Shown here one piece after another: positions 15,282-64,000 of a stretch of 64,000 nucleotides of DNA. Origin of the DNA: Amoebophrya sp. A120. Lineage: Eukaryota; Protista; Dinoflagellata. The stretch is from the NCBI GenBank assembly GCA_905178155.1, contig CAJINV010000002.1:6366476-6430475 (forward strand), written 5' to 3'. Positions within the stretch are counted from its first letter, which is position 1. The number at the start of each line of letters is the position of its first letter. The notes beneath the pieces were generated by a model. That model did not search any database, was not told the DNA's origin, and worked only from the letters and a program-made list of their open reading frames with translations. Position numbers and translations under genes: made by a program.

Positions 15282-18200
15282 ATGCCGCGTGAATCAAGCG
15301 CGCATCGCGCTACGTCTAAGCGGATCAACGCACTGTATGCGGTTCGCTGGCTGTACTCCCGCACGGGGCTAAAAATCTTCTTCCTCGTTCACCTGGCTGT
15401 CCGCCTGTTTGCGCGAAAAACGGAGGAGAAACGCACGAGCACGGAACAACACCAAATTACGACGAACCAGTTGGAGATGAAGACCGAACAAACTACAGAG
15501 GAAATGCGCCGCACCGGGGCTTCAAGACAGGAAAGCAAGACTGGAGCGGGGCTGCGGAAGCGGAAAAGAAGATTGGTCGTGCGAAAGCGAAAAAGAAAAA
15601 AAGCAGCCGATGACGATGCCGATGATGCTCTTGACTTTATGCAGCATTTGGCGCATTTGCATGATATGTCGCTGCACCCTCACGACGAATATCTCGACCC
15701 CGACCTCGGGAATCGTGATGACGACGACTTCGAACATGGTTCTTTTTGGACGAAGAGTCTAGCGGAGATTGATGACGAAACGCCACCCACGTGGAAAAGC
15801 AAATACGGGCGACCGTCTGATTGGGCTTTTACTGACGGGGTCAGCCAGCGCGACATCATCGCTTTCGCGGAAATCAAAATGGAAGATGAAGAAGGCAACG
15901 TAGTGAATGATGGTGATTGGCCAATTACTATCAACTGCAAATATGTCTAGGTCTGCAAGAGTGCAAGACTTGTAATGCTGAACTCACATCATCATCCCAA
16001 GGCCAAACTCTGTAATGCGTGTTGCGGAAGGGCGGTGTTTGTTCTGTGTCATGCAAAAACGTCGCCTGGTCGCATGCGTCTTCCGCACCACAAGACCGTT
16101 CAAAAATGTGTCATGCTCGGTTGTGTACTCTAGTCATTTCTTCATTCTTGTAGTAGCATGACAAGTTTGAGTTTCCAGTTCCAGACATATTTGCATGTGA
16201 TAATTACGAAAGAGGAATGGGAGGCCGTAGGCGGAAGAGACGAGCAGTGGGCCTGGCTCTGCTGGACAAACCCCCATGCGCCGGGGGAAGACGCTGATTG
16301 TGACGAAATAAAAGAATATTCATGGCAAATATTTTGTCTGGGTCGGGAAATAAGTTGTGAGGCTTGTCTGTGAATAAATAAGTGTTGTGCTGCCGCGCAT
16401 GACTGGTTTTTGCGCGGTGGCTATGTGTTGCCTTTTTCGCATGAGAAACTGCGTGTAGTTTGCATTACATACAAATAGAGTGGAGTTGTCGGCGGGGGAG
16501 CATGCATTACAGCAGTGCAGAGTCATGCCGCGCAAGCATGACACGTCTCGCCTTCTTCCGGACCCAGGCATAAGTATTTGCATTTGATAAAGAAGAGGAT
16601 TGGAACCTGCACCCAAATCCGGGTGCAGACACAGACGGTCCGCATACAGATATTCTGCGTAAAAACGCTCCCACACAATATTTGTCATGCGAGTCTGCAT
16701 GCCCCGAATGTCTCTCATGCGCAGTATGTAATTTGTATGTAAGGCGTTGGGTTACCAGAGCCGATCCACATAACAACAGCAGTCCGCCGAGGAGCATTTT
16801 CTGAGGGTTTTTTTAAAGTAGTCACTCTCGAATCAGGATCATGTTGCAACGCGGCTTTTATAGCCAAGCATGACTACACTGACTACATTGTCCGAAAAAT
16901 TCGGCAGCCTACGGAGTTCACAAAGCTTCTTGATTTGTCCAGCAGATTAATGCGCCAGCATGACTATGGGATGCTGGGGACGTTTTCACACAGGATACGG
17001 AAGCCGTGTGGGTGGCAATGGTCTGCAGCAAATTCCGCCACGTCAATCGCAGCCTTGTCATCGCCAAAATGGGCAGCTGAAGATGCTCAAAGCTCTGACA
17101 TAGCCGTTGACGAAAAGTACACGGCCCTGGGTTTGAGCGATAACGAGAACCGGTTTCTGCAATTACTCGACGGAAAACAGAAGGGGACTCGGTTACCGAG
17201 TCGGATGTTTCCAGCCTTTGCGGCGGTGAACATGTGCCCTGGCCGCACCTGCCCCGCCGCGCTTTCGATGTGGATCTGGCGAGCTTTCAATTGTGCGCCC
17301 AACACTACGGCATTCACCTCGACGACGGCGACGATCGATTGTTCAAAATTTTGACCAGGCACACGGACGTGGGCGAAGTCGTATCCATCAACGGGGAAAA
17401 AAAGGTCTCGGGCAGCACGGTTAGCACCGACGTGATGAGCAATGCGCAAGAGCAGGACTGGTCGCTCCAGGCTATGACGCAGTGGGCGCAACATAACCTT
17501 GACGAAGGCAGCAATAACGGCGAGGGCGATCCTGTTGACACGCCTGTTGTACGTCAGTTGTCCATAACTGACAATAACGTAGAGGCCACGGGAGTGACCT
17601 CTACCAACCCGCAGGGACACATCGAGGAGGTCTCCTACGATCTGGATGGCGACGACGGCTCAAGCACCCCCGACGAGCAGGCTCTCGAAAAACTGATGAC
17701 GACGGCTGGCGGGCAGCACTTGACGCTGACCGAGCTGCTCGCCATGTGTGAGGGCCAGCTGGACTCTGGTGCGCTGACCGCAGGCGGTTTCAAAGACTGT
17801 GCTGCGGATCCCGATAACGGCGGGGGTACGCAGCTGACGGATGATCGGCTTTGGCACGTGATCGCGGGCCAGTTTGATACCGACGGAGACGGTAGAGTCA
17901 CATCAGCGGACGGAAGAGCGGAGGGCAGCACTACGACGGTTTCCATCGCTGACATCAAAAACTCCGCACTGCAGTACGACGACCTCCATGACGAGTCGAT
18001 CTCTCATAGCGGCTCGAAGCACGTCGACGCGGACAAACTGAGAGACATCGCTGACCGGCTGGCGGCGCGCAACGGGGACGGGAGTGCCAGTGGCAGCAGC
18101 GGCGGCGAGGGAGGTGGAGCGGAAAGTGGTGAAGGCCAGGCGGTGGGGTCGACGATCACGAAAAACCAGTGGGTGCACACGCTGGGCCGCAAGGGTTCCG

Positions 18201-21200
18201 ATTTCGACTTGCTGGCCAAGCAAGGCAATGGTGGCGGAGGAAGTGCTGACCACATCCTCGATCAGAACGACATCTCGTCGATCGCAAACGATCAGGATGG
18301 ACATGACATCATCTCGGATGGGAAAAACTTTCACACCGTCAGTAGCGAGTTTCTTGATTTCCAGAGCGGAGGCCTGGGCGCAGGGGATAAGGCGATGCTG
18401 GAGGGAATGTTTGGAAAAGGAACCGGGGGCAACACACTGACCGTTGACGGCATCTTGAGTTTTTGTGGCGATGGAATGGGGCAGCTCACGCAGGACACCC
18501 TCCGCGGTTGCGCGAATACGAACGGATTTCGGTTGGCCGACGATGGAGCCGGGCTGTTTGATTTGTTGCAAAAGGCCTTGGATACGACGCCGGGAGATGA
18601 CAGCATTCAGCGGGGGAGTACGGAAGCCTACAGCCTGGAGGCCCTCCAGCAGTTTTCCGATCAGCTGTCTACGAACGACGCGGAGACGGGCCCCGGCGAC
18701 ATCCTGACCGATGTTACGACGGAAAGCGCCACCGGTGCAGAGAGGGTGGTCGACCCCGACAAAATGGAGGACATCGCAAACACATTGGGGGACGGCGAGT
18801 CCCCAATCACCCAGAATGAGTGGGTTCTCGCGGGACACGGGTCTCCTGCGGACTTTAAGAAGCTAGCGGAAGGGGGCAGCGACCCGAATCTCATTGAGGG
18901 TAGAGCGGAGCTCACCGGTCACGAGATTTTCACTGTCAACGGCGAGGACCACACGTTGCAAAAAGAGGAAGTCTCGTACGATCTGGATGGCGAAGACGGC
19001 TCAAGCACCCCCGACGAGCAGGCCCTCGAAAAACTGATGACGACGGAGGACGGGCGCCCGAAGAAGCACTTGACGCTGACCGAGCTGCTCGCCATGTGTG
19101 AGGGCCAGCTGGACTCTGGTGCGCTGACCGCAGACGGTTTCAAAGACTGTGCTGCGGATCCCGATAACGGCGGGGGTACGCAGCTGACGGATGATCGGCT
19201 TTGGCACGTGATCGCGGGCCAGTTTGATACCGACGGAGACGGTCGAGTCACATCAGCGGACGGAAGAGCGGAGGGTAGCACTACGACGGTTTCCATCGCT
19301 GACATCAAAAACTCCGCACTGCAGTACGACGACCTCCATGATGAGTCGATCTCTCGTAGCGGCTCGAAGCACGTCGACGCCGACAAACTGAGAGACATCG
19401 CTGACCGGCTGGCGCCCGGCGGGGAGAGTGGCAGCGGCAGTAGCGGCGGCGAGGGAGGTGGAGCAGAAAGTGGTGAAGGCGAGGCAGTGGGTGGATCGAC
19501 GATCACGAAAAGCCAGTGGGTGCACACGCTGGGCCGCAAGGGGTCGGATTTCGACTTGCTTGCCCAGCAGGGTCAACATGGTAGTGGGGATGATGACCGC
19601 GTGATCGATCCCGGTGACTACGCGACTTCGGCGGCGGCAGCAGACGGGGGCGACACGACCACGCCTGTTGACAACGTAGTCCGAAATAACGGCAACTTGC
19701 AGGAGATCGATAGCCAGGTCGCAAATGCGAAGTTTCCAGGGTCCGACGGCGACGAGGATCTTGGAAGTGGGGGAAAGCTGCTGTTGCAGCAGATGTTTCT
19801 CGATGATGGCGAGGCGGGAGCGGGCAGCAAGAAGTTGACCGTGGCTGGCATCTATCACACCGAAAGTTACCACTTTGGCATGTGTCAACATCTAGTGCAA
19901 CATCAAACAAGACGATCTATCGTGTGTTTTTTGTTCGACCGATATAAGAGAGAGAGTTCTTCTCATTTTTAACAAATTATTACATACTGGATGGTGCAGA
20001 TCGACGAAGCTGTAACTTTGTTCTCTGTGATATCGTCGTTAGTGTATGCGAGTTGACAGCGGGCGACCCGATCACTGCGGCTGTGCTGAGTGACTGTGCA
20101 GAGAGCAAAGGCATCAACTTGTCTGACGCGGACCGCGATAAGCTATTCCAGCTGCTCAGTCACGCTCTGGATTCGACTCCCAAGGAAGACGGAGGGAGCA
20201 CGAGCATCGAATCTGCAGCGGACGAAAACACTGCGGCCTACGACCTGACAAGCTTGCAGCACTTTGCTAGCAGCGAACACGACAACAGCATCAACGTCCT
20301 GGATGCTGTCGTCAAGAACGATGGATCCGGGCGAGAAAATGTTGTTGACCCTGGGCAAGTTAGCAAGCTCGCGGGCTCAGTTGGGGACGGAAAATTCCCA
20401 ATCACCGAAAATGAATGGCGCTTCGCAGGGGGTGGCAGCCACGAGGATTTTGTCACGCTGAGCGGCGGCGAGGACGGCGAAATTACGGAGTCGGACGTTC
20501 CGGTCGCGGGCACGGCAGGTGCCGGCTCGGAAATAGTTTCCAGTGGCGGCAAATTGCGCGAAATCAGCACCGGCGACGTCGACTTTGACAAGGCGGATCT
20601 GGATTCGGACGATAAATTGATGCTGCAGCAGTTTGTGGGCGAAGACGGCAAGGTGGACTGGAGCTTAATCACTGGCTGGTGTCGGGACCAGCTGCCGCTG
20701 ACGGACGCAAGTCTCAAGAGGTGTGCGGAGAACATTAGCTTTCACCTGTCTGATGACTCTCAGTTGTTCAAGGTGCTCAGCGCCGCATTTGACACCACGC
20801 CCGGCGACACGGAGATCAACACCACGCCCGTGGACTACGACGTGATGGCGCACGTCGACGCGGATGGGGACAAGGTGGTGGAGCCGGGGGAAGTCGACAA
20901 GGTTGCCAAGGCACTGGGGGACGGGCACTTCCCGATTACCAGACAGGAATGGGTTGACGCGGGACACGGAAATCCGGCTGATTTCGACCTCATTGCGCGC
21001 CAAGGTGGGGGCAATGACGACGAAATTACGGCATCGGACATTCCCGCTGACCCGGGTGCGGCAGCGGGGGCTGACGCCGGTGACGCTTCTGCCGCTTCCT
21101 CGGGTGCGAGCGTACTGGTCGTGAACCACGGCAAGCTGCAGGAGGTCGATGGCGAAGATGTGCTGACCGGGGAAGGTCCGCACGAGAGGTCGGAAGTGTC

Positions 21201-37770: not shown

Positions 37771-40700
37771 ATGTCGCGGGCTCGTCGTTTCACCACGCTT
37801 GTACGACTTGTTGTACCAGCGACGGCACTGTTCGCCGCGCGGTTGCAGAAACTCTCGCCCCTCGCGGTCTGGTCATTTGCCACGACTACTTCTTTGCTCC
37901 TTCCCCGCGTCGCGGCAACGAAATCGAAAACACGAGCAACCGCCTCGACAACCGAGGAAGCCGAGAATTTCGACGCTCTGCTGAAGTTTCTGGATACGAT
38001 GAGCAAGGAAATCGATGCGGAGATCGACCAGACAGAGCAGCTCGTGAAGAAGAAGGAGTGCTTTTGCAAGAAAGAACAAGAGCGGCTCGGTGTGCGGTTG
38101 AAAGAAGAAAGAGACGAAAAGATTCCGGTACTGCAGGCTGAGCTGAAGGAGACGCTCGGGACGCTGGGTCAGCTCAAGATCGAGATCCCGGTATGCGAAG
38201 TGAAATACTGTCGTCCATGAGAAGTAGATGACCAGCTCTATCTGCGAATTATGTGCGTGTTCAAATAGGAGAGATTACATAGATACACCACGCGATTTGT
38301 TGTCATGTGTTTTTGTACGTGTTTTATCCACCATTCAATCATCGCAAAAGCGCCGCTGATGTTGTCATGTGACGGCGATTTGACTTCGGATACCGAGAAC
38401 TGGAAGAGAAGGTGAAAGACTTACAGACTGAGAAGAATACGACCATCACGACGCGGGAAGAGGAAAAAAAGCAATTTACCATGGACGAAAAAAATTTAAA
38501 CACCTTGATCCAGACCTGCACAGAAGCGATCAAGGTTTTGGGGAAAAAAGAAAAAGCTGAAAACAGAGCAGCGGACGACCAGAAGGAAGCGACTGGGGAA
38601 CAGGAAGTTGCGAAAAGTGCGTTATTATCAGTGCAAAAAGCGCTCTTGCAAGGTCAACATAGCGATCAAAGATTAATATTTCGGGCATCAAAAACAGCAG
38701 GGAGACCACTTTATTCAGAAGCCAGCCAGCAACTGCTGCAACAGTCCGCAACCGCTGCTGCACTGGCGAAGAACTCCGACCGAATACTGGGTATCAAATG
38801 CAAAAATGTCTGGGTCTGGAAGATTGCGAGATTTGTCATGCTTGTCTGGCATGACCAAAAAGTTTGTGATGCGTGTCCAAGAAGAGACCCTTTTGCCTGT
38901 CATGCACAAACGCAGTTTGTCATGCGAAATACGCAACACAAGGAAGCGCAGATATTTCTCATGCTTGCCTATGCATTACAGAGCATTCACTATTCCCAAC
39001 GCAGCATTACAAGTTTCCAGACCCAGACATTTTTGCATTTGATACTGGGAATGCTGAAGCAAATGCGGGACAACGCGGAGACCGAGTTGGCCGAGGCGAC
39101 GGGTATCAAATGCAAATATGTCTGGGTCTGGAAGAGTCTAAACTTGTGATGCTGTCTCTGGATTGGAAAAAGATTTCTATTGCATGACCAGGAAGAGGAG
39201 TAGATTTTGTGCTCCGCGGAGATGGCATTTGTCATGCGGAATAGGTATGAGGAAGCGCTCTAAAAATCTGTGATGCTACGGCATGCATCACAGATACATG
39301 GCCTTTTGTTCGTTCCCTTCTGCATTTTTGTCCTTGCTCCCCGAAAGGGGATTTCCTGTGGGGGGGGGTGCGGGAAGTCAGAAAACAAATGGCACGAAAG
39401 ACGCCTGCTAGCGAGCTGATCAAGATAAGTAAACTATTTGACTGTGATGCCATGGAAAGGCGTGGCATTAGTACGACGCCAGTTCCCCCTGCTAGGGGCG
39501 ATCGCAGGGTAGTTCTAATTTGTGCGGGCTGTGTGTAATGCGGTGGTGCGATACAAACTACAACAGAGAAAAAGATCAAGCTCGGGCCGCGCGCGATGCT
39601 CATCCCATTCGTTTTTTCCGACGAATCACTTCCTTCACCAGGGCCTTGCTCAACCCTGGACCAGAACGAGTAGGACAGAGGACCCCAGAGGTAGGCACTG
39701 TAGCGGAAAGTTGGAGCAAAACTAATTTTTTTTGAAAACGAACCCAATAGGAGCCGACCTGCGTGGATGGTTACAAAACAGGTAGCTTGACCCCAAATGG
39801 CAATGATCATTGGGAGCAGCAGAGCGCAGCAGGACCCCGGGACTGCAACAGCTCACCCCTGTTTTAACTTAGACATACGCAGTGCACCGAGTATGCCACT
39901 ACCTCGACCCCTCAAGAAAAGAAGTAGCCCCCCCAACTACAAACTCGCCGTCCGCGATCAGGATCCCATGCGTACTAACCAACATTGTGCGAACCGAGAT
40001 CCCGCGGGGCACAGGGTCTGGGCGGCTCGAAGCAGAACGCGCAGCACAAGCGGGAGACAACACATCCAAAGGTGGGGATGGTCTCAGGTCGTTCAGGTCC
40101 GCCAAGGGTTGCGTCTCGCTATCAGGGTTTCGCCAACTCCGCGGGGGCGTTGCGGGTATTTCCCTAAAACACCAAAACCGGCACAAATTGGGCCGGCAGT
40201 CCGGGTAATTGCTCACCAGCCGGTTTGTATGACGAAGAAGGTGCTCGACGAAGGAAGAAGTAAGCATGTAATTAGCACCTCCGGTTGGTAGAGCGATCGG
40301 CTACCGAGGCACGTCAGGGTGGCGTCGCTACTTCAATTCAATTCAATGGAAAATATGCATGACAAATCTAGAAATCTTCCAGACCCAGACATTTTTACTC
40401 TTGATAGCGGGAGCGGAGAAGCAAAAAGCTGCATCCACGGCGAAGCTCTTGAGGGCGAAGAACCAGGAACTGAACGCGCTGCAGCAGCAACTAGACGAAA
40501 AGAAGGCGAAGTTTTCGGATTTGAAGGACGACGAGGGGCAGGCGTTTGAGGAGTTGGAGAATTCGAAAAAATCAGTAGCGCTGGTGGAGGAAAATTTACT
40601 TGCAATCAAAACCGACTGCGATAGTTCCTTAACCGATTTGAACGAACAGAAGAACAATTTGTCGTCCGAGCAGGAGTCGTCTCAAGTGCAAATATGTCTG

Positions 40701-48923: not shown

Positions 48924-51900
48924 ATGTCTTCTATCATGACGAAACCTACTAAGAAAAGAGGCAGCACGAAGGCGGCTGTTTTTCCGTGCTGGTTCTACTT
49001 TTGCTTCCGTTTCGTCACCTTCCTCCAAGGACTCCCAACCCTGATCTTCGCTGTCGACCGGCAACAGTTTAGCAATGCGGCCACGAGACGAGTAAAGGTG
49101 GCAGCGGATCATGATCAACGACCTCGTCCCGAAGCAGGTGGAGGAACTACTACACCACCAGCAGATGTTGAAAATGGCGCAACGAAATTACCACCTAGCT
49201 CTGCTGCTGCGGCAGGAGTAGGAGGTCCGCCTGGGGTAGTACCGGGAAATATTAAGGGTGAAACCCTAGACAAAAAGAACGCAGAAGAGCAAAAACCTGC
49301 CGCAAAAGACAATCCAACACAAATTGTCTTCGATGAGCGCCTGGACGAATCGGGCCTGAAGGATATAAATGGTGAGGACGAGGACGTGGACGAACTGAAG
49401 CCGAGCGACGCTTCTGCGGAGCGAAAAATCGGACGGGAGCAGGAGGATTTGGTGGACAATCTCGTAAAGGTAAATTACCCGGTCTTATCAATTGTAAAAA
49501 TGTCTGGGTCTGGAAGATTCTGACACTTGTCATGCACATTTTGCATGAGCCCTGATGTCTGTGATGCATGCCCTAGCATCACAGATTCTTCGAGAGCTTC
49601 TTGATGCCTATTCCGCATGACAAATGCCCTCTCCGTGTAGCAAAAATTGCATTCCTGATGGTACTCATGCAATACAGATTTTTCTGGAATCCAAATGCAG
49701 CATCACAGGTTGCATTCTTCCAGACCCAGACATTTTTACATTTGATAGGTCTATCAGCTCGAACTGCACGCCACCTACAACCTGTGGAAACGCGCACAGG
49801 AGTTGAAACCGGACCTGTTTTCCTACATTGTGGCCTCGCTGAACCCAATCACGGAAGTCGGGGGGCTACGGGAGGACGAGGAGAAGGTGTGGTGGCTGCG
49901 GTACATCGTCATGGCGGCGTTTTACATGCTCATTTTGTCCTTTGCCGCCAACATGATGAGCGACGGCGCAGAACTGCTCATGCTGGTGCCCGAGTATGTG
50001 GACCTGGTCGGGTCGATCGTGTTGCCGCTGTTGGGCGCGTTCCCGGACGCGCTGTTCGTTTTGTTTTCCGGCTTGGGTCCAAGCGAGTTGGTGTACCGGA
50101 GAGTCACGGCCGGGTTCGGGTTTCTGGCTGGGTCCAGCTGCTTTCTGCTCTGCATCCCCCTAGCCGGCGTGATGGCGGCGGGCCGGGTGCCGGTGAGGAA
50201 CAACCCCAACAATCCGAAACAGCTCCTCGCAGACTACACCACGGAGGGCAAGGAGAAGGGCAAGACAAGCCGGGTGTGGGATTCGGGGGCGAGTCTGAAC
50301 CGCTCCGTGTTCAACGCCCTGCTGTGGACGTTTCTGACCTCCTTCACCACGGGGTTTGGCATTTTTGCAGCCTACGACTCAAAAGACCAGATGGTCGGGA
50401 TGGCGGAAAAATGGACCAACATCACGGAGAGCTCCGACGAGTGGCGCATGGTAGCCTTGCAGGAATACGTGGCGGACTTGAAGGGGGATAGCACACCCTT
50501 CTCGCAACAGAAGCCATTCGTGAGGTACTATGAATATTCTTGATCAAAGCAAGAGCGCTTGTCCAAGCTGAGTTTCGGTTTCCCTTTTAATCCCCCGATC
50601 TTGATATTCCGGCACTTCGTGGAGATGGTGAATCCAGCTGCCCGTAAAACTAACTTGGGGTAGTGTTTCGCTTTCGCTTATAAAATCATGATGCGCATTG
50701 AGATGAGTAAGTTATGAAGAGCAAGAAGCAAATCGCCACTACGTGTCAGCACGACCGCGCTGTCAATATAATTCCGTGTCCACCGATCCACAGGACCTAC
50801 TGGTGGTGGGAAGACGAGAACGCGTACTGGCGGTCCTACAGCACCATTGCGAAGCACCAGAAATTTTGGCTCCAAATGGGTTCCGGCGTGTGCCTGGCTT
50901 TGTGCGTGATGTACTGCGTCGCCAATCTTCGCGTCGCGCATAAGAAGAACCAGGCCCGGCAGGCCGGAGAGAATGAAACAGTTTCTACTGCAGGAGGCGC
51001 GGCGGGCCACCACGGGCACGGACCACAACCAAAGCAACTGCAACTACGGCACGGCGATACCAGTATGAAACACCAGCCGCTGTTCTCTTTCACCATATCC
51101 TGAGTAAAAACGTACCCACACCATAGTCAAGATGGGAAATCGGCTAGACAAATCCACAAGTTTTGGCTGTTTTGCATGACAAATTTGGATTCGTAGTGTA
51201 GTGCTGTTTGAGCTAGCTCAGCAGCATCACAGATCTAGCATACCATGCTGATTGGAGCATGACAAATTTCAAAACACCCTTAGAAAATGCTTCTCATGGG
51301 GCTCCGCATGGCAAACATTTTAAGCATGCAGATTTGCATGACAACTATGGTGTGGGTACGTTTTCACTCAGGATACACCAACGAGTCGCATCATCAGGAC
51401 ATGGTGGCCATCCGGAGTTCGCTGCGGCGGTCAATATTGTAAGGAAAAATCCCCCCTCCCCATATCGAAAAAGTATGATTCCGAAAATTTGTGTTGCTGA
51501 TTTGAGACCACAAATCACGTCTGTCTTGCAAGAAGACAAGTGCAGAAGCTTCCGCTCCATTATGGAAGCGATTTGGCATGCTGTTGCGCCTAGGGGGCAG
51601 CCGTGTGTAATGCTAAGCAACTAGACCCAAACACCCCTACCTAGGCCGAGGATCTGGCTGCGCTGCCTCACTGCAAGACAAATCAGATTTGTGTACGCAG
51701 ATCCGGCATCAGAAACTTCGTTTTGATATGGGGAGGGGGGATTTTTCCTTTTGATAGTCAAGTATGATTGACAACAACGAGTTGACGTTCCAAGCGGCGA
51801 TGGAGGGCTTGGTGCGGAAGAAAACGCTGAGCCCGCAGGAGAAGCAGCGTTATTTCCGCGAGACGCTGCGGCCCTTCTTCGAGCGGCGCGCCCAGCGGAT

Positions 51901-54825: not shown

Positions 54826-55187
54826 TAAAGATAGTAGTACTAATACGAAATAAAACAAAAATTGATCTAGAAAGTAGCCGATTTTATCATATTTCACACT
54901 ATTGTTCTATGCTATTCATGGATATTGCAAAAGATGACCTACTATGTTCTTGAGAGAAGGGATTTTCTTGAATGCCGTGTGCGTTGCTTGGCTGTCCTTT
55001 CAGAGCTTTAGTTTTGTTTATCGAGTGTAGAAGAATTCTCTTCAGAGACAGGTTGTGAAAACTGCCGGAATTCTGTGCCCGATTCTCGTAATTCATTCAT
55101 TACCACGGAAAAACTAAAACAGTCACTGAATTATTTTGTACCGATAAAACAAAAACTGTACATACAAATGAACAATAAGAGCTCGCG

Positions 55188-56467
55188 TTAGGGAGGAAAA
55201 CCGGGCGGAACGTGGTGAATCTTTAAAATTTTTCGCGCCTTCTCATCCGCCCCGGGCCCATCCTCATTCTGGCCCCCCTCCTTTCCGAGCTGGCTACTTG
55301 CCCCTCAGATATTACAGGGCGGGCATAGTACTCTTTGCGCCGCCTCCCTTCGTCCCCCTCCCCTTCAGCAGGCGGGGCGCCCATCCTAGGAACGGCCGAG
55401 TGCAACTCCGCGGCCCGGCTTTTTTGTCCCTATGGAGGCGGCATGCACCGCGAACGCAGCGCCGGGGCGCAAGTTATGCCGCAGCCCCCAAAGCAGCACG
55501 CCACAAAATGCCTGGAATGGCCGCCCGGCCTTCCGCGCCAGTAACCGTGGGGTGGCGGGCGCGCGCAAATTCATGGGCGGCCCCCGGGGCAAGGAGCCCC
55601 AAGGGCTCGGCAGCCGTTGGCCGTGTGCCAAGGGGGCAGGCCGCCGCGCAGAAAATACCATCGTGGGCGGCCCCCATAGATGCTTGCATTGCGCGGGGCC
55701 TCCGGAGGGCCCGATGGCGGCCGGGCCGCGGAGGACTCCCGAAGGGCCCCGATCGGGGTCATTTCTGGGGCCCAATATTTTTCCCAGATTTTTCCCAGAT
55801 TTGAACCCGATGCGGCCAGATTTACAGCGGTACGACGTCAAAGATTTTCGCCAGATTTTGCCCAGATTCGCCCCCCGGATGGGGTCGAATCTGGGGCCCG
55901 ATCTGGGCGAAATCTGGACGCCGGACATTTTCGCAAGATTTGGCCCCGACGCGGCCAGATTTACAGCGGTGCGACGTCAAAGATTTGCGCCAGATTTGCC
56001 CCGGGCCCGGGGCCAACACACTCCGGCGAACCCATGTCGGGTTCGCAGGCTGGCCCGCGCTGCGCCCCCCGGGCCAATCTGTGAGTATTCGGCTTCGGCG
56101 ACGACTTGGCCGCCCCAACTCAAGGAAGCTCGCGCGAGCGGACACGCGAAATGGTTTGTCGCTCTCTCCCGCCGAGCCCGCCCCAGACCGCTCGGCCCTT
56201 TCCTCCGCTTCCAAATGAAGTAGTTGCCTGTGGGGCCCGGCGACGAGGAGGCCAGACCGGTGCCCCCCATTCATTCGCCACCGCCCCCCTGCGCCCCCTA
56301 TTACGGATCACGCGCGCCGTCAGAAAGCAAGGGCGCAGGGCGCACACGGTGTGATGCTGTGAAGCCCCGCATACTGTAAGAGCTTGCGCGGCCTGTTCGG
56401 CCGGCCGAATGAGAATTCCAGAAAAATTTTAAAGATTCACCACGTTCCGCCCGGTTTTCCTCCCTAA
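55188..56467. mobile_element. Intergenic non-autonomous TIR element, 1280 bp, 47-bp perfect TIRs, 5-bp TSD
   Basis: ttagggaggaaaaccgggcggaacgtggtgaatctttaaaatttttc (55188-55234) and its exact reverse complement (56421-56467); tcgcg on both sides; GC-rich interior. Confidence 0.88.
55806..55997 (+). repeat. Internal 53-bp direct repeat pair and multiple CCAGATT motifs
   Basis: 55806-55858 vs 55945-55997 nearly identical. Confidence 0.8.
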
Positions 56468-57171
56468 TCGCGCTCCCTACCGCTAATTGGTAACGGCAGG
56501 ACTGATGGCTCGCAAATTTTTTACAGGTCTGTAGCGGACTGTGCCTTCGTGTCTGGTGTCTATCGCTTTTCAAGCTCCAATGAATTTCTGGGTGGACGAA
56601 CATATTAGAAACGAAGGGACGAGCACGAGAGTGATTCAGTACAGAGAATGTACTATGAAGAGCGAGAGGACGCGAGCGATCAGTGAGAGAGACCAGTTCT
56701 TGAGCGCACGAACAAAAGTGACAATGAAAAGATGCTTTTGACGAGTGACAAGCAAACGAGAATAGCGAGAAAATATTTTGTTGTTGCGCAGACTTAGTGC
56801 GTTTTTTCGTCTTGAGGCAGCTGAGTTTGTCGTAGCTTATTTTCTCGTGTGAAGACAAATGACTTTCAGTTTCAAACCGAGACTCAAACTTCTGCAGCAT
56901 CGAGGAAAAATTATGGAAGCTTCGCGTCCTCGAATCAGACTCAGCCTGTGTATTCATTTTCCCATCCCCATACACCTGGAGCACGGCAACCCTCGTGCAG
57001 TTTGAATTCACTTACCCCGTTGCATTTGCATGCACATAACAACTCAATCACCGCTTTAGAAGAGAAAGAGAAGGAGGAAAACACCTGCACGTACGAAAAG
57101 TTGCATTTGAGCTTCGGGACAAGGACGGCCATGTTCACTCGCCGAAGCATCGAAGCAAGAGCAGCGAGATA

Positions 57172-60100
57172 ATGACGCAACCGCCCGGAGGAGGGGAGGA
57201 CGGCGGCGGGGGCGGGTCGAGCTTCTCGGGAGGACCGCTCACAGGAGCGTCCGCCGCCTCGTCGTCCTCGAGAGTTACGATAAACAGGACGGATCACGAT
57301 AGAGACGACTACGGCTTGAGAATTATGACGACTGGTTGCAGCAGCAGCAGCAGTCCTGGTAGAAGTGCTACTTCCTCCTCCGGCGCTTCTCATCGCAGAA
57401 GACGCGACCTTGTTTTCGGGCGGAAGAACAAAAGACCACCGACCCCGACAACATCTCGTCCAAATGCCTCTGCACTGTCGCCTTCATCCGGAACAACAGT
57501 TTTGCAACAAAATTTAGCGACCATTCATCCCAGGTGGAGAAAAACCTCACAACAGAAAACTAGTACAATAATGTCCTCGTCTGCCAAGGTGAAGCGGAAA
57601 CGGCGGCGCTTACTGGCAGTAAATCCATTATTTCGCCGACCCACTACAGCCGGCGCGTTTTTTCTTCTCGGCGCTGCTACGTCTGGTGGAGTGTATGGTT
57701 TAGATGAGAAGATGGCGAGATGGCTGGAGGATAACATCGCAACGCCGGTCTTGAATGGCGAAAAGAACGGAGACATCATTTCACCAGAGGAATTTGAAAA
57801 GAGACGAAGACTGCAAGATGAAAAAAGCGGCGATAATCTTCCGAGTACGGGCTTACTCGCATCAACTTCATCGTCATCGAAAGCGGCCAGTAGGATGTTT
57901 CGCGCCGGCGATGCAGTAGATGAACAAGATGCGGAGGAAGAAGAGCTCGAGAGGCACCAATTCCTTCCCCTCGGTATGGCTCCGGACACCCCGCCCGACC
58001 GGGTCGCTGACGCCAGGCGCTATTTAGTCATGGAAGCGGAGCGGGAGCGCACCGGTTGGAAATACGCGGAAGAGTGGAGCAAGTACAGTGGGAAGGAAAG
58101 AACGAAGGCATTGTCATCATCATTTTCGAGGACGTCCTCGCGAGCCTTAGCAGCGACCGATGATGAACATCAAATAAACGCCGAGAAGAACAACGTGATG
58201 AAACACGCCTACGGTCACTCCGCCGTGACGAAAAACGTGCAATTTTTCACCGAATCCGACCAGTGGAAGCCAGATTCGCTGCACAACCGCGCGGTGCATG
58301 CGCAGCAGCGGAATTTGCTGCACGCAGACAACCCAAACTTTCCCAAAGCGCTGACACGGGGGGAAAAACCAATGATAATAACGCCAACCACGGACTACGA
58401 GCGACTGGTTCAACACGAACAGGGCAAGAAAAAGCCGTCCAAATTTTTCCTGCACGATCACAGCGAGAAGTCGGTGGGCGCCCGGAAACTGAGGAAATTG
58501 GCGGAGCAGAGGCATCGGGAACATTTATCTTCCGTCGACAACTACTTGACGAAAGAGGATCCGAAACTGGTCAGCTTGTGGGAAAAGAAAAAGAGCAACT
58601 ACAATCCATTCACGGCGGAGGAGAGCCATTTGAGGAGAACGTCGGAGTTGGAGGCACAGTCCGTTCGGAAGAACTCCGAGCACCAGGTTGATGATCCTTG
58701 CGCAGGAGCAGCAGAGAGGGAGCAACAAGTAGATTTCGAATCCGACAAGCTCCTCCTGGATAAAAAGCACGCGGATCAGCATGCAAGGAAAAGGTTAAGG
58801 CAATTAAAAGCGTCAACCGCTTTCCTGGAAGGGGGGTACAAGGCGGTGGAAGAAGACCTGCAGTCGCTCCCGCTCGACGAGCAGGCGAATTTCCGGGCGA
58901 ACCTGCAGGAGTTGGAGGACATAGCGGAGGAGTTGGAAGAGAATAACGTGCTGCACGAGATCTCTGACAACGACGGCGAGCACAACTTCGAATCCGTTGG
59001 TCTAAACGGGAAGAACGAGCTGTCCGTCATCGAAAACAGCGAGGAGGAGCAGAAGATGCAGATTGTCCGGGATCTCCGCCGAGCTCTCAAGGACCAAAGA
59101 GCGGGCATGAAAGTAGTGGACGTCGTGGCGAGGTTGCGGAAAAAACACGAAAACCGGAGGAGAAGAAGGCTAGAGGAGATAGAGCAGAACCAAATTTTGA
59201 AAATTAATGCCGGGGACAAAAATAAATCGTCGAATGCTGGGATGAAGTGCAGTGCAGAAGGCAGCAAAGGAGCAAGCAGTTTGTCTGCAGAGAAGGACCA
59301 CATCCGCAACCTAGTGGCCGCGGCCAAGGACGCCGACTTGGCGCAGCAAGATGAATTCCACAAAAGGTCTCTCTCCTCGCACGTCACCGGCACCTTCTTT
59401 GTCGTCCAACCACGAGCGATCGCTGGGTTTTACGACGGGAGAGACGAGTATTGCAAGCAGTGGACGGAATCCCCGCCGGTCGTTTCCCGGCTGAATCCCC
59501 AGTTCCCCCGCGACGGGACGGGCATTATGGAGCAGCAGAACAAGGCGTGCGGCGTCGGCATCATCAACTACTTTTTCACCATATCAAATGCAAAAATGTC
59601 TGGGTCTGGAAACTTGTGATGCTAAAAGTGGATGATAGCCGGACTGCAATAGGCAGCAAAGCATGACAAATTTTTGAGCTGCTATGTGTTGCGTATTCCG
59701 CATGAGAAACTGCCTAGGGCCAAGACGACACCGTGAGGACGACCACAGGGGTCCGTCTCAATGAAATGAAAATGACAGATAGGAGATGCTTTTCGTGCTC
59801 ATGCATCACAGATTCTCGAGTCATGTCAGACATGCATGACAAATGTAAGAATCTTCCAGACCCAGACATTTTTGCATTTGATACACCACGTCGGACGTCG
59901 ATACCTACGCGTCGAACCCCTCGATCCAGCAAGTTGTCTCCATCACGTTAAAGTGGGCCACGTTCGTGATATCCGAGACGTGTGAGAACCTGCTCGACGC
60001 GTCTGGTGGATTGGCCATTGCCTCCTGCCGCTTCCAGGCGAACGAGGCAAAGTTCTTCTTGTCGCAGGGCTTGAAGAAGAACACGGCTTACACCCTCGCC

Positions 60101-63100
60101 GTGCGGCACTACAACCCGGAAACCATCGTGAGGGCGAACGTAGCGAATGCCGCGGGTTTGAACGCGGTGGCTGCGACGTTGGATTCGAGAGGGTTCGTGA
60201 TCAACACGGGGGCGCAGACGGAAGTGCTACGAATCGGTGAGCCGAACGACCCCGGGGCGATCAACGTCAGGCAGTACGAGCGAATCGACGTCAGGAAGGG
60301 GTCGCTAGCAGGTATGCCTAGATTGTCGCTGGTGTTGCCGTTTTTTAATGGATATAATCATATTCTCTAATGTGTTTAGTTCGTGTTTCTCTGTATGTGA
60401 ACTGATTTGGTTGGTTTTGCTAGAAAAAAACAAACCCTCTTCTTCTGCATCTTGCATAAGTAGAAAAAGACGAAAAAGCAGCAGCAACATACATTCATGA
60501 CACGTGTCAGGTGTGAACATCACGAACCCGGACATTGCGACCGCGGTTCGCGGGCTGGTGGTCCCGGCGTCTCTCCACTTCTCGCACCAGTACCTCGCCG
60601 TGGAGAACACGTTTTCGCTCATCGTGAAGTTCCACCAGGGCGACAACATCGAGCAGCCCACGCAGCCACAATATCCTGTGTAAAAACGTCCCCGCCCCAT
60701 AGTCAAGATGGCGAATCGGCTAGACAAATCCACACGTTTTGGCTGTCTTGCATGACGCCGATTATATATACCTGGTCCTAGATAGATCCGGTGCTCGCCG
60801 GGCTTGCGATCTCCCTTTCCACCCACCTGGAGCTACCTGCGACGACGCGGCTATCATGTGCATTACTCTCAATTGGACTGTGGCCTTCCGTGGCATCCTT
60901 GGGTCTGACTTCTCCCTCCTCGTCCGAATATTCACACTCGCCATGGCGTGTATGAATATGCCTGCGGTTCTGTTCCCCCTGCGCCGCTTTGCATGTTCTG
61001 GTGTGGTTTGCTGGCCTCATTGCATGTTCTTGTTTTTGTATGTTGGCCCTATGCTTGTTGCTTTGGCCGTGTGGTGGCCCCTATATCTCGTATGCCGTTG
61101 CTAATGACCGATGCCACCAGTCATAGTCCAATTGAAGCCTTTTACGCGTCTCGGGTTTTTGCCTACGCCATACCCTAAGTCGGGCGAGTCTGCGGCTGGT
61201 CGCTCCGTACCTGTCTTCAAGTCGTCCCGGGGCACGTGCTGAGACTCTCCGCTGCGTCTCACGACTGAGCCGCCCGGTCCGTAGCTGCAGAAGGACCGTT
61301 CGCACCCTCAAACCAGCCTCACCAGCGCACGATTGGAATCTGGCAGTTGCCCTTCAAGCCCTGGCGCTAGGGCGATTCCGACAGCTTGACACCCCCGACC
61401 GCCGGGAGCCAGATTTTGTGCTTGGAGAGTCAACACGCTTTTTCTACGACCACGCAGCGCTAGCACCACAGTACCACTTCCGGGCTCCCGCAGTTGTCCC
61501 TCAGCCTCCCGATGCCTGGTGGCAGAATGCGTCGCTGTGGCTACCCGGCTATGGATGCTGGTGAATTGCCTTCCTGTGTTCTGGTTCGGACTAAACGTTG
61601 CTGCTGAGGAGGGACCGGCCTGAAATTTCGCCTGCCTTGGATTCTTTGCGCGGTTCCTGTCATTGCTACTCACTAATTTGTCACAAACGAATATTCCTCT
61701 TTGCCAAATGCCACCGCCCTAAAAAAAAAAAAAAAAATAGGTGAGAAAATCAATAAAGGATATCTAGTCGAACCAGCGGGAGCGTGTCCCGGAGCTGCAG
61801 GGATGCTAACAATGACCTCGAATACAAATTCTGAGCCTGATTATACCCTCTACGGTCCGGCTTTTCCGTCGCTGTTGGTTCTTCTATGTGCCTTCAGAGG
61901 ACTGGCTGGACCTATACTACCTTACTGCAGCTTCCAGGGCCGTCCTTGTTTTTCTGTTGCGGGAGGTGCCTGGTCCAGCTGGTACAATTCGTGGGTTCAT
62001 GAGGTCGATTTGAGGTAGTTGTTACGTGTGGTTGGTCTTTCGGTTCTGCCTGAGTATTTCCTTTTCAGTCAAATATTTAGTCTTCTGAACTTCGACTTCT
62101 TATCCTTATTTCTCGCCTATTTATTGGATGAAGCTAAACAGCGCCTCTGACTTATTAATGTTTTTGGCGTATGTGACTCATCCATATATCAATGTGAAGG
62201 TCTTGTCGCAGGAGTCTGCATTTTTGTTGCTGTGCTCCTGGTTTTGGCTTTCTATATGTTTAGCGAGTTGGAATTGTTGGCTAAGGTTGGCGTAATTTGG
62301 CAAAGTGGGATATGTTGGTGTGAAGTGTGTTGGAATCGTGGCCGGGAGATGATGGTGATGGCACTTCGGTGTCCGCCTGACCTACCTTCCCTGCGTGACA
62401 GCCATCTGCGGCTGTTTACAAAGGGGGAGGCAAAGTGTGCCGCACTTCTGTTTAGCATGACAAATTTGGATTCGTAGTGTAGTGCTGTTTGAGCTAGCCC
62501 AGCAGCATCACGGATCTAGTTCATCATGCTGATTGGTGGAGGACAAATTGCAAAACGCGACGTGATCATGCTTCTCGTACGTGGGGCTCCGCATGAGAAA
62601 CATTTTCAGCATGCAGATTTGCATTACAGCTATGGGTTGGGGACGTTTTTAAATACGATGCACAACCCTTGCAGTTCATCAAGCACAACGCGAAGCACCC
62701 GGCGGCGGACACCGAAAACGCACAGCAGCAATTGAACATTCAGTGGGAATGGGACGACGTGCTCGTCAACCTCGGGTCCGGGGGGACGCCGGCCGGAAAC
62801 CGCCCCAACCAAAACATCCGCGGGTATGTGAACGGCTTTTCGTGGCGACCGTCCGCGGAGTACGATTCCCGGCAGGGAACCACGGGTATCCTGTTCACGT
62901 TCGGCTTCCGGTTCTACGGGACGCTGCGGGCGCCGCAGGGACGGGCGATCTTTTTATCGCAACCGAGTCACGTGTGGGAGGTCGCGACCTTGTCAACGGA
63001 TGGGGGCGCGACGGAGTGCGTCGGGGTGCAGTACAACCCGGGCGTGGGGCTCAAGTGCAACACGTTCAAGTACCCGGGGTACCAGGGGAATAACTTCGCC

Positions 63101-64000
63101 AACGGGATTTTCTTCTTCTACGACAGCGCCGCCACGGTTGCGATCGACACGAAGATCTCCCTAAGGCTGAACAACCCGAACGTGGCGGTCAACATGTTCT
63201 GGCTGGCGTATTCCTACCAGTACATGAACGGAATTATGCGGGCGCCGTTCACCATGGAATTAGACAAGCCGATCGCGTATCAACTGCAAATATGTCTGGG
63301 TCTGGAAAAGTTGGAATCTGTATTGCGTGTTTTGCACTCCTGTAAAATCTGCATTGCGTGACCGACAAAAGCGGGAATACTTTGTCATGCAAAAACGTAG
63401 TTTCTCATGCGCATTTCACATGAGGAAGCGTCCTGAAAATTTGTCATGCTTGGCTGCGCTCAGGAGTACGCTCAGTCATCGCAACTTAGCATCACAAGTT
63501 TCCAGACCCAGACATATATGCAATGCATATCGCGACGCAGGGGTACGGCAGTGGGGACGTGATCTCCACGACCTCCTTGGCGGTCAACGAAAAGAACAAG
63601 GTGACGCTGCTCTTCCGCCCGGGAAATACGGTGATTCCGATGTCCTCGGTTTTAATTTCAGGCTATCTCGTGATACTGCCGCCGACCGGCTTCCAAGTGG
63701 ATAGGACGGGTACGGGATTTTTTATTGTTTCATTTGCTGGAATTACAATTATGAATTAGAATTGTCGTCTTTGTTGTATGTAGTGAGGTCACCGAACGGT
63801 TCTAACCGGGGAGTTTTTTTGCCATCCAGCCAGCAAAACGCCCGGCAGTTTCCAAGCGGCCGGAGGGCTTTTTGCACAAAAAAAAATTTCAATTATCAAG
63901 CGGCTCTGGCTATGTCGGCACCGAATCGCCAGCGGATTCTATCGATCGCCGCTTGGTAAAACGACGCAGAGAAGCCAGCAAAAGGGGCGCCCTTCTGAGG
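57172..64000 (+). CDS. Large secreted/surface-type protein (RRL motifs, charged region, then beta-rich domains); 3' partial
   Basis: ORFs 57172, 59966, 62669 and 63523 join via introners 59582, 60672 and 63278 and canonical intron 60312-60510; probable further GT intron from about 63710. Confidence 0.72.
59582..59883. mobile_element. Introner, family A-like
   Basis: DR cacca; join YFFTTSDVD. Confidence 0.9.
60672..62660. mobile_element. Family E introner carrying a 1.7-kb nested insertion
   Basis: Family E halves 60672-60756 and 62455-62660; DR cacaa; join QPQPLQFIK. Confidence 0.87.
60757..62454 (-). mobile_element. Nested insertion, probable decayed retroelement fragment
   Basis: Flanked by duplicated gcatgac; minus-strand C2H2-like remnant near 62155-62260; A17 tract at 61721-61737. 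Confidence 0.55.
63278..63529. mobile_element. Introner, family A-like
   Basis: DR tcgcg; join KPIATQGY. Confidence 0.9.

What the first reader, a model, noticed from the sequence alone, without database searches (positions are those of the whole stretch)
60672..62660. Introner as landing pad: 1.7-kb insert at the shared GCATGAC motif
Seen: compared with intact family E copy 51096, this copy is split exactly at gcatgac, which is duplicated (60750-60756 and 62455-62461). The insert's minus strand has a broken C2H2-like stretch (LAKHIESQ...DSCDKTFT...SHIRQKH across frameshifts), an internal A17 tract and a tatatata end. Host exons still join in frame. Inference: a decayed non-LTR retroelement, possibly targeting the abundant introner motif as a safe haven. 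Removal apparently tolerates a 2-kb interior.
Basis: partly seen in the sequence, partly recalled or inferred. Interest (0 to 1): 0.7.

Follow-up and report, generated by a model that had tools for sequence, protein, structure and literature searches.

The report
Two-kilobase cargo inside a hairpin intron
A 1.7-kb piece of DNA, likely a decayed retro-copy, sits inside a small transposon-derived intron that lacks the usual splice signals, and transcript contigs show the whole 2-kb block cut out exactly, so these introns are likely recognised by their paired ends whatever lies between.

Summary
The split is real. A 280-nt terminal-inverted-repeat introner (family E) carries 1,691 extra bases between two copies of a 14-nt stretch (12/14 alike; the GCATGAC 7-mer is exact). 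A DNA-type contig bridges the left junction. Contigs of two probable RNA runs join 60666 to 62661 exactly: one 1,994-nt intron, no GT-AG, host frame open, ends still predicted to pair. A second introner in the window (39100-40407) holds an unrelated 1-kb insert and is also removed exactly. So 'landing pad' and 'tolerates 2 kb' hold. Targeting of GCATGAC is open: both breaks fall at CATG-core boxes (about 2% jointly, post hoc) and one other contig shows the same end followed by the box, but the boxes are common (71 in 64 kb). The introners match those described for Amoebophrya A120, where kilobase introners are already catalogued. New variant of a known kind.

The parts
60508..60666 (+). Host exon before the intron
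   Evidence: table 8 (X3 record 9, X5 record 14)
60667..60671 (+). 5-nt direct repeat CACAA, left copy (one copy stays in the mRNA)
60667..62660 (+). Whole 1,994-nt non-canonical intron removed as one block (may slide 5 nt right; none of the 6 end pairs is GT-AG, GC-AG or AT-AC)
60672..60756 (+). Left half of family E introner, with left terminal inverted repeat starting TAT
60682..60702 (+). Left arm of terminal stem, predicted to pair with 62630-62650 (p 0.93-1.0 at 20 of 21 positions) in the folded full-length intron
   Evidence: I1
60743..60756 (+). Left copy of the 14-nt duplication, ending in the GCATGAC box
   Evidence: D11
60757..61720 (.). Insert segment A, single-copy, 57% GC, no homolog
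61721..61737 (+). A17 tract at the seam of two segments of different GC content; inferred poly(A) tail of a plus-strand RNA
   Evidence: role inferred
61738..62337 (.). Insert segment B, 45% GC; from 62004 rightwards at twice single-copy depth with no differences, plus diverged relatives
   Evidence: tables 2, 3, 4, 8
62158..62300 (-).
62338..62447 (.). High-copy end of the insert (about 120 times single-copy depth, rough); no Rfam match, no unusual fold
62448..62461 (+). Right copy of the 14-nt duplication
   Evidence: D11; table 5c (intact copies rejoin at 62448)
62448..62660 (+). Right half of family E introner; outer 10 nt of the inverted repeat decayed, its other two GCATGAC boxes mutated
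62661..63271 (+). Host exon after the intron, starting with the right CACAA copy
39100..40407 (+). Second split introner (other family), 1,308 nt, removed exactly in one probable RNA contig
39302..40345 (+). Unrelated ~1,040-nt insert in the second introner; depth rises from 68 to 300-389 towards a (TTCAA)3 tail; inferred 5'-truncated non-LTR copy

Best explanation
A 1,691-nt piece, likely a non-autonomous, composite retro-copy, sits in the middle of a family E introner between two copies of a 14-nt stretch, and the cell removes introner plus cargo as one 1,994-nt intron without GT-AG ends, likely because the predicted terminal hairpin and the 5-nt direct repeat, not the interior, set the cut. 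SHOWN: the split, the duplication, the exact in-frame join in transcript-like contigs, a second such case. INFERRED, step by step: (1) the insert is derived, since the split copy is closest to an intact copy (83%) and all four intact copies lack it; (2) it likely came by target-primed reverse transcription of a plus-strand RNA whose conserved 3' end (62338-62447) carries its own box-like letters, annealed to a nick at the GCATGAC box and left a 7- to 14-nt duplication; the enzyme likely jumped at 61737 onto a second, polyadenylated RNA (segment A); (3) it survived because an introner interior is neutral space in a gene-dense genome. Odds: real and spliced 0.9; ends-only recognition 0.75; retro origin 0.6; plus polarity 55:45 within that; active targeting of the box 0.2.
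For: Split and duplication. Left junction bridged in DNA-type contig at single-copy depth; exact join 60666|62661 in X3 and X5, the same contigs also drop a neighbouring GT-AG intron, so they are spliced; three exact low-depth pieces of the insert in X3 show those cells carry it. Open frame after splicing, stop at 60681 if retained. Terminal stem predicted in the full 2-kb fold; 2 of the 4 outer mismatches are G-U pairs on this strand. Boxes 2 and 3 of this copy are mutated and box 1 is split, yet it is spliced. Depth gradient 1x, 2x, 3-5x, ~120x from left to right is the pattern of 5' truncation, and the second insert shows the same direction ending in a microsatellite tail. One X1 contig reads the high-copy end through 62463 and then other letters, so that end meets a box at a second place (table 5c). 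Priming by target-like letters in the RNA 3' end is described for SART1Bm and R1Bm (PMC7265360, passages).
Against: No reverse transcriptase, endonuclease or any homolog. No poly(A) or microsatellite tail at the proposed 3' end. Contig depth is not copy number, and a tandem array could give the same depth. The right junction is not bridged by a listed piece. X3 and X5 are RNA by a guess and belong to one study. End pairing is a prediction; no mechanism of cutting was tested. Nine in-frame GT/GC-AG pairs exist near the ends, but the contigs do not use them.
Confidence: 0.58

Rival explanations
1. DNA-level templated insertion: a break at the box was repaired by copying 1.7 kb from a donor that ended in another box-bearing repeat; the 14-nt 'duplication' is one box from the target and one from the donor.
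For: Both mismatches lie in the outer half of the 14-mer; 15 14-mers within 2 mismatches of it occur in the window, most of them introner boxes; the high-copy end is followed by a box elsewhere; no retroelement protein.
Against: A donor for 60757-62003 is not in the genome data (single unbroken contig); intact E copies align from 62448, so the right copy fits E itself; internal A17 unexplained.
Confidence: 0.2
2. One reading: minus-strand, internally deleted zinc-finger non-LTR element (R2/CRE-like); the high-copy end is a shared 5' signature or tandem promoter unit, and its 5' end was joined by annealing at the box.
Against: C2H2 at chance level (17 of 60 shuffles); the would-be 3' end is single-copy; T17 in mid-element; no RT or endonuclease. 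This rival shares the retro step counted in the best explanation.
Confidence: 0.17
3. The long form is ancestral or another DNA element (TIR transposon, Helitron, tyrosine-recombinase circle with a 7-nt crossover core); short E copies arose by deletion between the repeats, or a circle recombined in at the box.
For: Exact 7-nt core fits recombinase overlap lengths (recalled); kilobase TIR introners with ORF remnants exist in Amoebophrya A120 (PMC12130899).
Against: Split copy nests among intact copies; no terminal inverted repeats on the insert; no Helitron TC/CTRR ends by reading; no transposase or recombinase hit.
Confidence: 0.07
4. Assembly artefact at the repeated box.
For: Right junction not bridged by a listed piece; X1 may be the source data.
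Against: Left junction bridged at single-copy depth; both halves belong to one element whose exons join in transcripts; no listed DNA piece shows the empty form at this locus.
Confidence: 0.03

Closest known systems
Introner elements / non-canonical introns of Amoebophrya A120 (Farhat et al. 2021, PMC7789003; seen: abstract, passages, sections 10, 11, 12, 16, word search of the supplement)
   Same: Inverted repeats starting TAT with an A run, 3-5-nt direct repeat over the borders, no GT-AG, predicted hairpin joining the exon ends.
   Different: That study kept introns of 40-1,000 bp (mean non-canonical intron 240 nt in A120); the passages read do not describe nested cargo or the GCATGAC box (0 hits in the supplement). 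This intron is 1,994 nt.
Amoebophrya A120 introner families with retroelement-like interiors (Gozashti et al. 2025, PMC12130899; seen: passages, 40 of 58 A120 rows of one supplementary table)
   Same: TIR introners with long interiors (family 38 about 810 bp, family 103 about 1,190 bp, family 135 about 1,180 bp, family 25 about 1,470 bp) and hits to LTR, LINE or DIRS peptides in several large families.
   Different: Read there as transposon families in their own right; here single members of short families are split by unrelated cargo with a visible junction, which may explain part of those hits (inference).
Euglenid nonconventional introns (PMC12501133, abstract and outline; other titles from listing)
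   Same: Works like them: non GT-AG introns whose ends pair.
   Different: No CAG/CDG...CTG/CHG signature was tested here; different lineage; direct repeats and TIRs of a transposon family.
Target-annealing non-LTR elements SART1Bm and R1Bm (PMC7265360, passages)
   Same: Target-like letters at one end of the insert that could prime or join at a repeated genomic motif.
   Different: No protein, no tail, no array of targeted full copies shown; membership not supported.

Membership tests
Amoebophrya-type introner element | Terminal inverted repeat | tested here: met
   30 nt, 83% complementary; stem predicted
Amoebophrya-type introner element | 3-5-nt direct repeat over the borders, one copy kept | tested here: met
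   CACAA
Amoebophrya-type introner element | Non GT-AG removal supported by transcripts | tested here: met
   2 of 2 probable RNA contig runs laid; 0 of 6 end pairs canonical; raw-read run X9 did not cover the exons
Amoebophrya-type introner element | Repeated family | tested here: met
   4 other copies in the window, 64-83% alike
Amoebophrya-type introner element | A120 repeat starts TAT, seven bases, A run | tested here: met
   left end fits; right end decayed. Organism named by resemblance only
Non-LTR retrotransposon (insert) | Reverse transcriptase / endonuclease coding remnant | tested here: not met
   0 Pfam families at cut-off in 6 of 6 frames; no hit
Non-LTR retrotransposon (insert) | Target-site duplication | tested here: inconclusive
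   7 exact, 14 with 2 mismatches; box-to-box joining gives the same picture
Non-LTR retrotransposon (insert) | Poly(A) or tandem tail next to the duplication | tested here: not met
   A17 is internal; TATATATA is 6 nt from the junction
Non-LTR retrotransposon (insert) | Dispersed family with variable 5' truncation | tested here: inconclusive
   depth gradient fits, copies not seen one by one
Site-specific zinc-finger non-LTR clades (R2/CRE/NeSL; features recalled) | N-terminal C2H2 fingers | tested here: inconclusive
   pattern present by eye, 17 of 60 shuffles score as well; the 2 hits were repeat-driven
Site-specific zinc-finger non-LTR clades (R2/CRE/NeSL; features recalled) | Many copies at one target motif | not testable with these tools
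   no genome held; one contig row only
TIR transposon / Helitron / Crypton (insert; features recalled) | Terminal inverted repeats, TC...CTRR ends, or recombinase frame | tested here: not met

The most novel reading that the evidence does not exclude
The CATG-core boxes shared by many introner families are preferred break or priming sites, and unrelated retro-RNAs land there by annealing; because removal needs only the paired ends, introners are self-healing safe harbours inside genes, and the insert may even have sent out a daughter copy (the identical 62004+ segment) from the host transcript.
Probability: 0.2. Interest if true: 0.72.

Novelty: new variant of a known kind. Interest (0 to 1): 0.46.

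Why it matters
How Amoebophrya-type introns are cut without GT-AG (and with no U1 snRNA detected, PMC7789003) is unknown. Nested insertions are natural interior-swap experiments: sevenfold and fivefold longer interiors, split or mutated boxes and a frayed outer stem are all tolerated, which narrows the signal to the terminal stem and direct repeat. Two cases among about 31 introners in 64 kb suggest hundreds genome-wide, enough for a census of what splicing needs and of whether breaks cluster at the box. It also warns that retroelement hits inside TIR introners can be cargo rather than a new transposon class.

Tried and rejected
Whole-genome search: no genome is held, so the flanks of the ~120x end were never listed; this leaves targeting open. 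Pfam on 13 ORFs and on 6 frames read through stops: nothing at cut-off. Protein search with the minus-strand finger frame: 0 of 344 candidates; representatives search: 2 hits, a repetitive adhesin-like protein at 29% and a tandem-repeat peptide, both rejected; Atlas: no usable hit. Rfam: 3 weak matches, all far below gathering score; folds of both insert ends not better than shuffles (z -0.7 to 1.4); no tRNA in the window. No other copy of any insert tile in the window. Large internal palindrome: rejected; only 61662-61720 against 62284-62336 stands out (score 39 against shuffle maximum 33 of 200, one of four comparisons), unexplained. Run X9 (raw RNA reads) laid only on one introner end and was uninformative; no run was listed as a holder on record as RNA. 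Insert pieces in X3 and their absence in X5 were not used as a measure of retention. Host protein: no Pfam family at cut-off in 4 exons, 0 of 1,676 candidates, Atlas leads under 0.9. Second insert: no Pfam, Rfam or protein hit. Look-ups of earlier scan notes by sequence and place were empty. Literature: 'introner' with 'nested insertion' gave 0 papers; 'nested' has 0 hits in PMC12130899; searches showed no description of this in their listings. Roy et al. 2023 (Curr Biol) was seen only as a reference entry, and figures, 18 of 58 A120 rows and one supplementary file of PMC12130899 were not seen; they may bear on novelty.

Full report
Setting. The window is full of 190-330-nt elements with terminal inverted repeats starting TAT and 4-6-nt direct repeats. 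This matches the description of Amoebophrya A120 introner elements (PMC7789003, section 11); the organism is named by that resemblance only. No whole genome was held, so outside evidence comes from contigs of coded public runs.

Observation. The element 60672-62660 is a family E copy in two halves: 90% and 84% identical to the intact copy at 51096. Rejoined, it is closest to that copy (83%) and 64-74% alike to three others, all four lacking the insert, so the insert is most likely derived. The overlap between the halves is 14 nt with 2 mismatches, of which GCATGAC is the exact inner half; intact copies in run X1 rejoin at 62448 (table 5c). The insert is 60757-62447.

Is it real? In DNA-type run X1 one contig covers 60702-62033 with no difference, at depth 40 against 41-44 for neighbouring unique DNA, and reaches 55 letters past the left junction. 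The right junction lies in repeats and no listed piece bridges it. X1 may be the data behind the window.

Is it spliced? In X3 (record 9) and X5 (record 14), both RNA by a guess and of one study, 60508-60666 is followed without a gap by 62661 onwards. The same contigs drop a GT-AG intron (60309-60507) and other introners, so they are spliced transcripts. The five-exon join has no stop; the removed block is 1,994 nt and none of its 6 possible end pairs is GT-AG, GC-AG or AT-AC. Retention would stop the frame at 60681. X3 also holds three exact low-depth pieces of the insert, so its cells carry it. Folding the whole intron still pairs 60682-60702 with 62630-62650, although the outer 10 nt have 4 mismatches, 2 of them G-U on this strand. 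The copy's second and third boxes are mutated. Inference: the terminal stem and direct repeat carry the signal; interior length and boxes do not.

What is the insert? No protein family or homolog was found. The insert is composite: 60757-61720 (57% GC), A17, 61739-62337 (45% GC), 62338-62447 (60% GC). Depth in X1 climbs from single copy, to twice that from 62004 (a 213-nt contig with no difference), to 3-5 times near 62230-62290, to roughly 120 times over the last 100 bases (contig depth is only a rough guide). That is the gradient of 5'-truncated retro-copies with the 3' end on the right and puts the A17 in sense as the tail of a second template. Against it, the minus strand is A-rich and the right end has no tail; a shared 5' signature would give a similar gradient. 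I put plus polarity at 55:45 and a retro origin at 0.6. One X1 contig reads the high-copy end through 62463, box included, then 26 other letters, then that end's start again: either a second landing at a box or a repeat that owns a box. In both readings box-like letters at the insert end can anneal to the target, as described for SART1Bm and R1Bm priming (PMC7265360, passages) and for LINE 5' joining (PMC4245944, abstract); this would also explain the two mismatches.

A second case. The introner 39100-40407, of another family, is split by an unrelated ~1,040-nt insert. X3 record 9 passes from 38783 over 58 letters, the length of exon 39042-39099, to 40408, with an open frame (the 58-nt piece itself is not a listed row; X5 does not cover this gene). 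This insert has depth 68 at its left and 300-389 at its right against 42 for unique DNA and ends in (TTCAA)3: a typical truncated non-LTR copy by pattern, with no protein hit.

Targeting. GCATGAC occurs 71 times in the window against about 9 expected, 54 of them in 32 delimited introner pieces covering 12.6%. A random 14-nt duplication in an E copy would contain a box 3-9% of the time, or end at one 1-2%. The second break lies 11-13 nt from an exact box, at a position where intact copies have the reverse box exactly (1 of 6) or with one mismatch (4 of 6); such sites take 13-19% of positions. Jointly about 2%, chosen after the fact, with two unrelated inserts and different junctions. That is a hint of fragile or annealing-prone boxes, not evidence of an endonuclease that targets them. 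Survival in neutral space explains the landing pad by itself.

What is known. Hairpin-ended non-canonical introners are published, analysed in a 40-1,000-bp window (PMC7789003). Kilobase TIR introners and retroelement hits in introner interiors are catalogued for A120 (PMC12130899). I found no description of nested insertions with transcript-level proof. One unchecked earlier scan note reports a 17.7-kb odd-ended intron in another dinoflagellate. Verdict: real; new variant of a known kind; interest 0.46.

Noticed in passing
window 39100-40407: Second introner split by an unrelated, multi-copy ~1-kb insert with a (TTCAA)3 tail; spliced exactly in X3. The insert family looks young (0-1 differences over 127-272 nt at about 7-9 times single-copy depth).
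   Followed up: yes
window 55184-56472: 1.28-kb element with 25 of 25 matching terminal inverted repeats starting TTA, 5-nt direct repeat, no GCATGAC box, internal 11-nt and ~140-nt repeats; upstream of the host gene, likely a separate young MITE family.
   Followed up: no
window 57571-64000: Host gene: frame open from 57403, transcript contig of 11,122 nt in X5, no Pfam family; Atlas leads (0.87-0.88) are unnamed eukaryotic clusters, some Perkinsozoa.
   Followed up: partly
whole window: GCATGAC box shared by many unrelated introner families (71 copies, about 8 times expectation); not found in the supplement text of PMC7789003; may be a transposase-binding motif (inference).
   Followed up: partly
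window 61662-61720 and 62284-62336: Weak inverted similarity (about 70-77%) between the stretch before the A17 and the stretch beside the high-copy end; unexplained.
   Followed up: partly
window 60309-60507: Canonical GT-AG intron that also has a 5-nt direct repeat (CAGGT) over its borders.
   Followed up: no
window 16651-16997: Minus-strand family E copy about 60-70 nt longer than the others, with extra internal segments not at a box.
   Followed up: no
window 17624-18263 and 18965-19610: 640-nt direct repeat at 91% identity.
   Followed up: no
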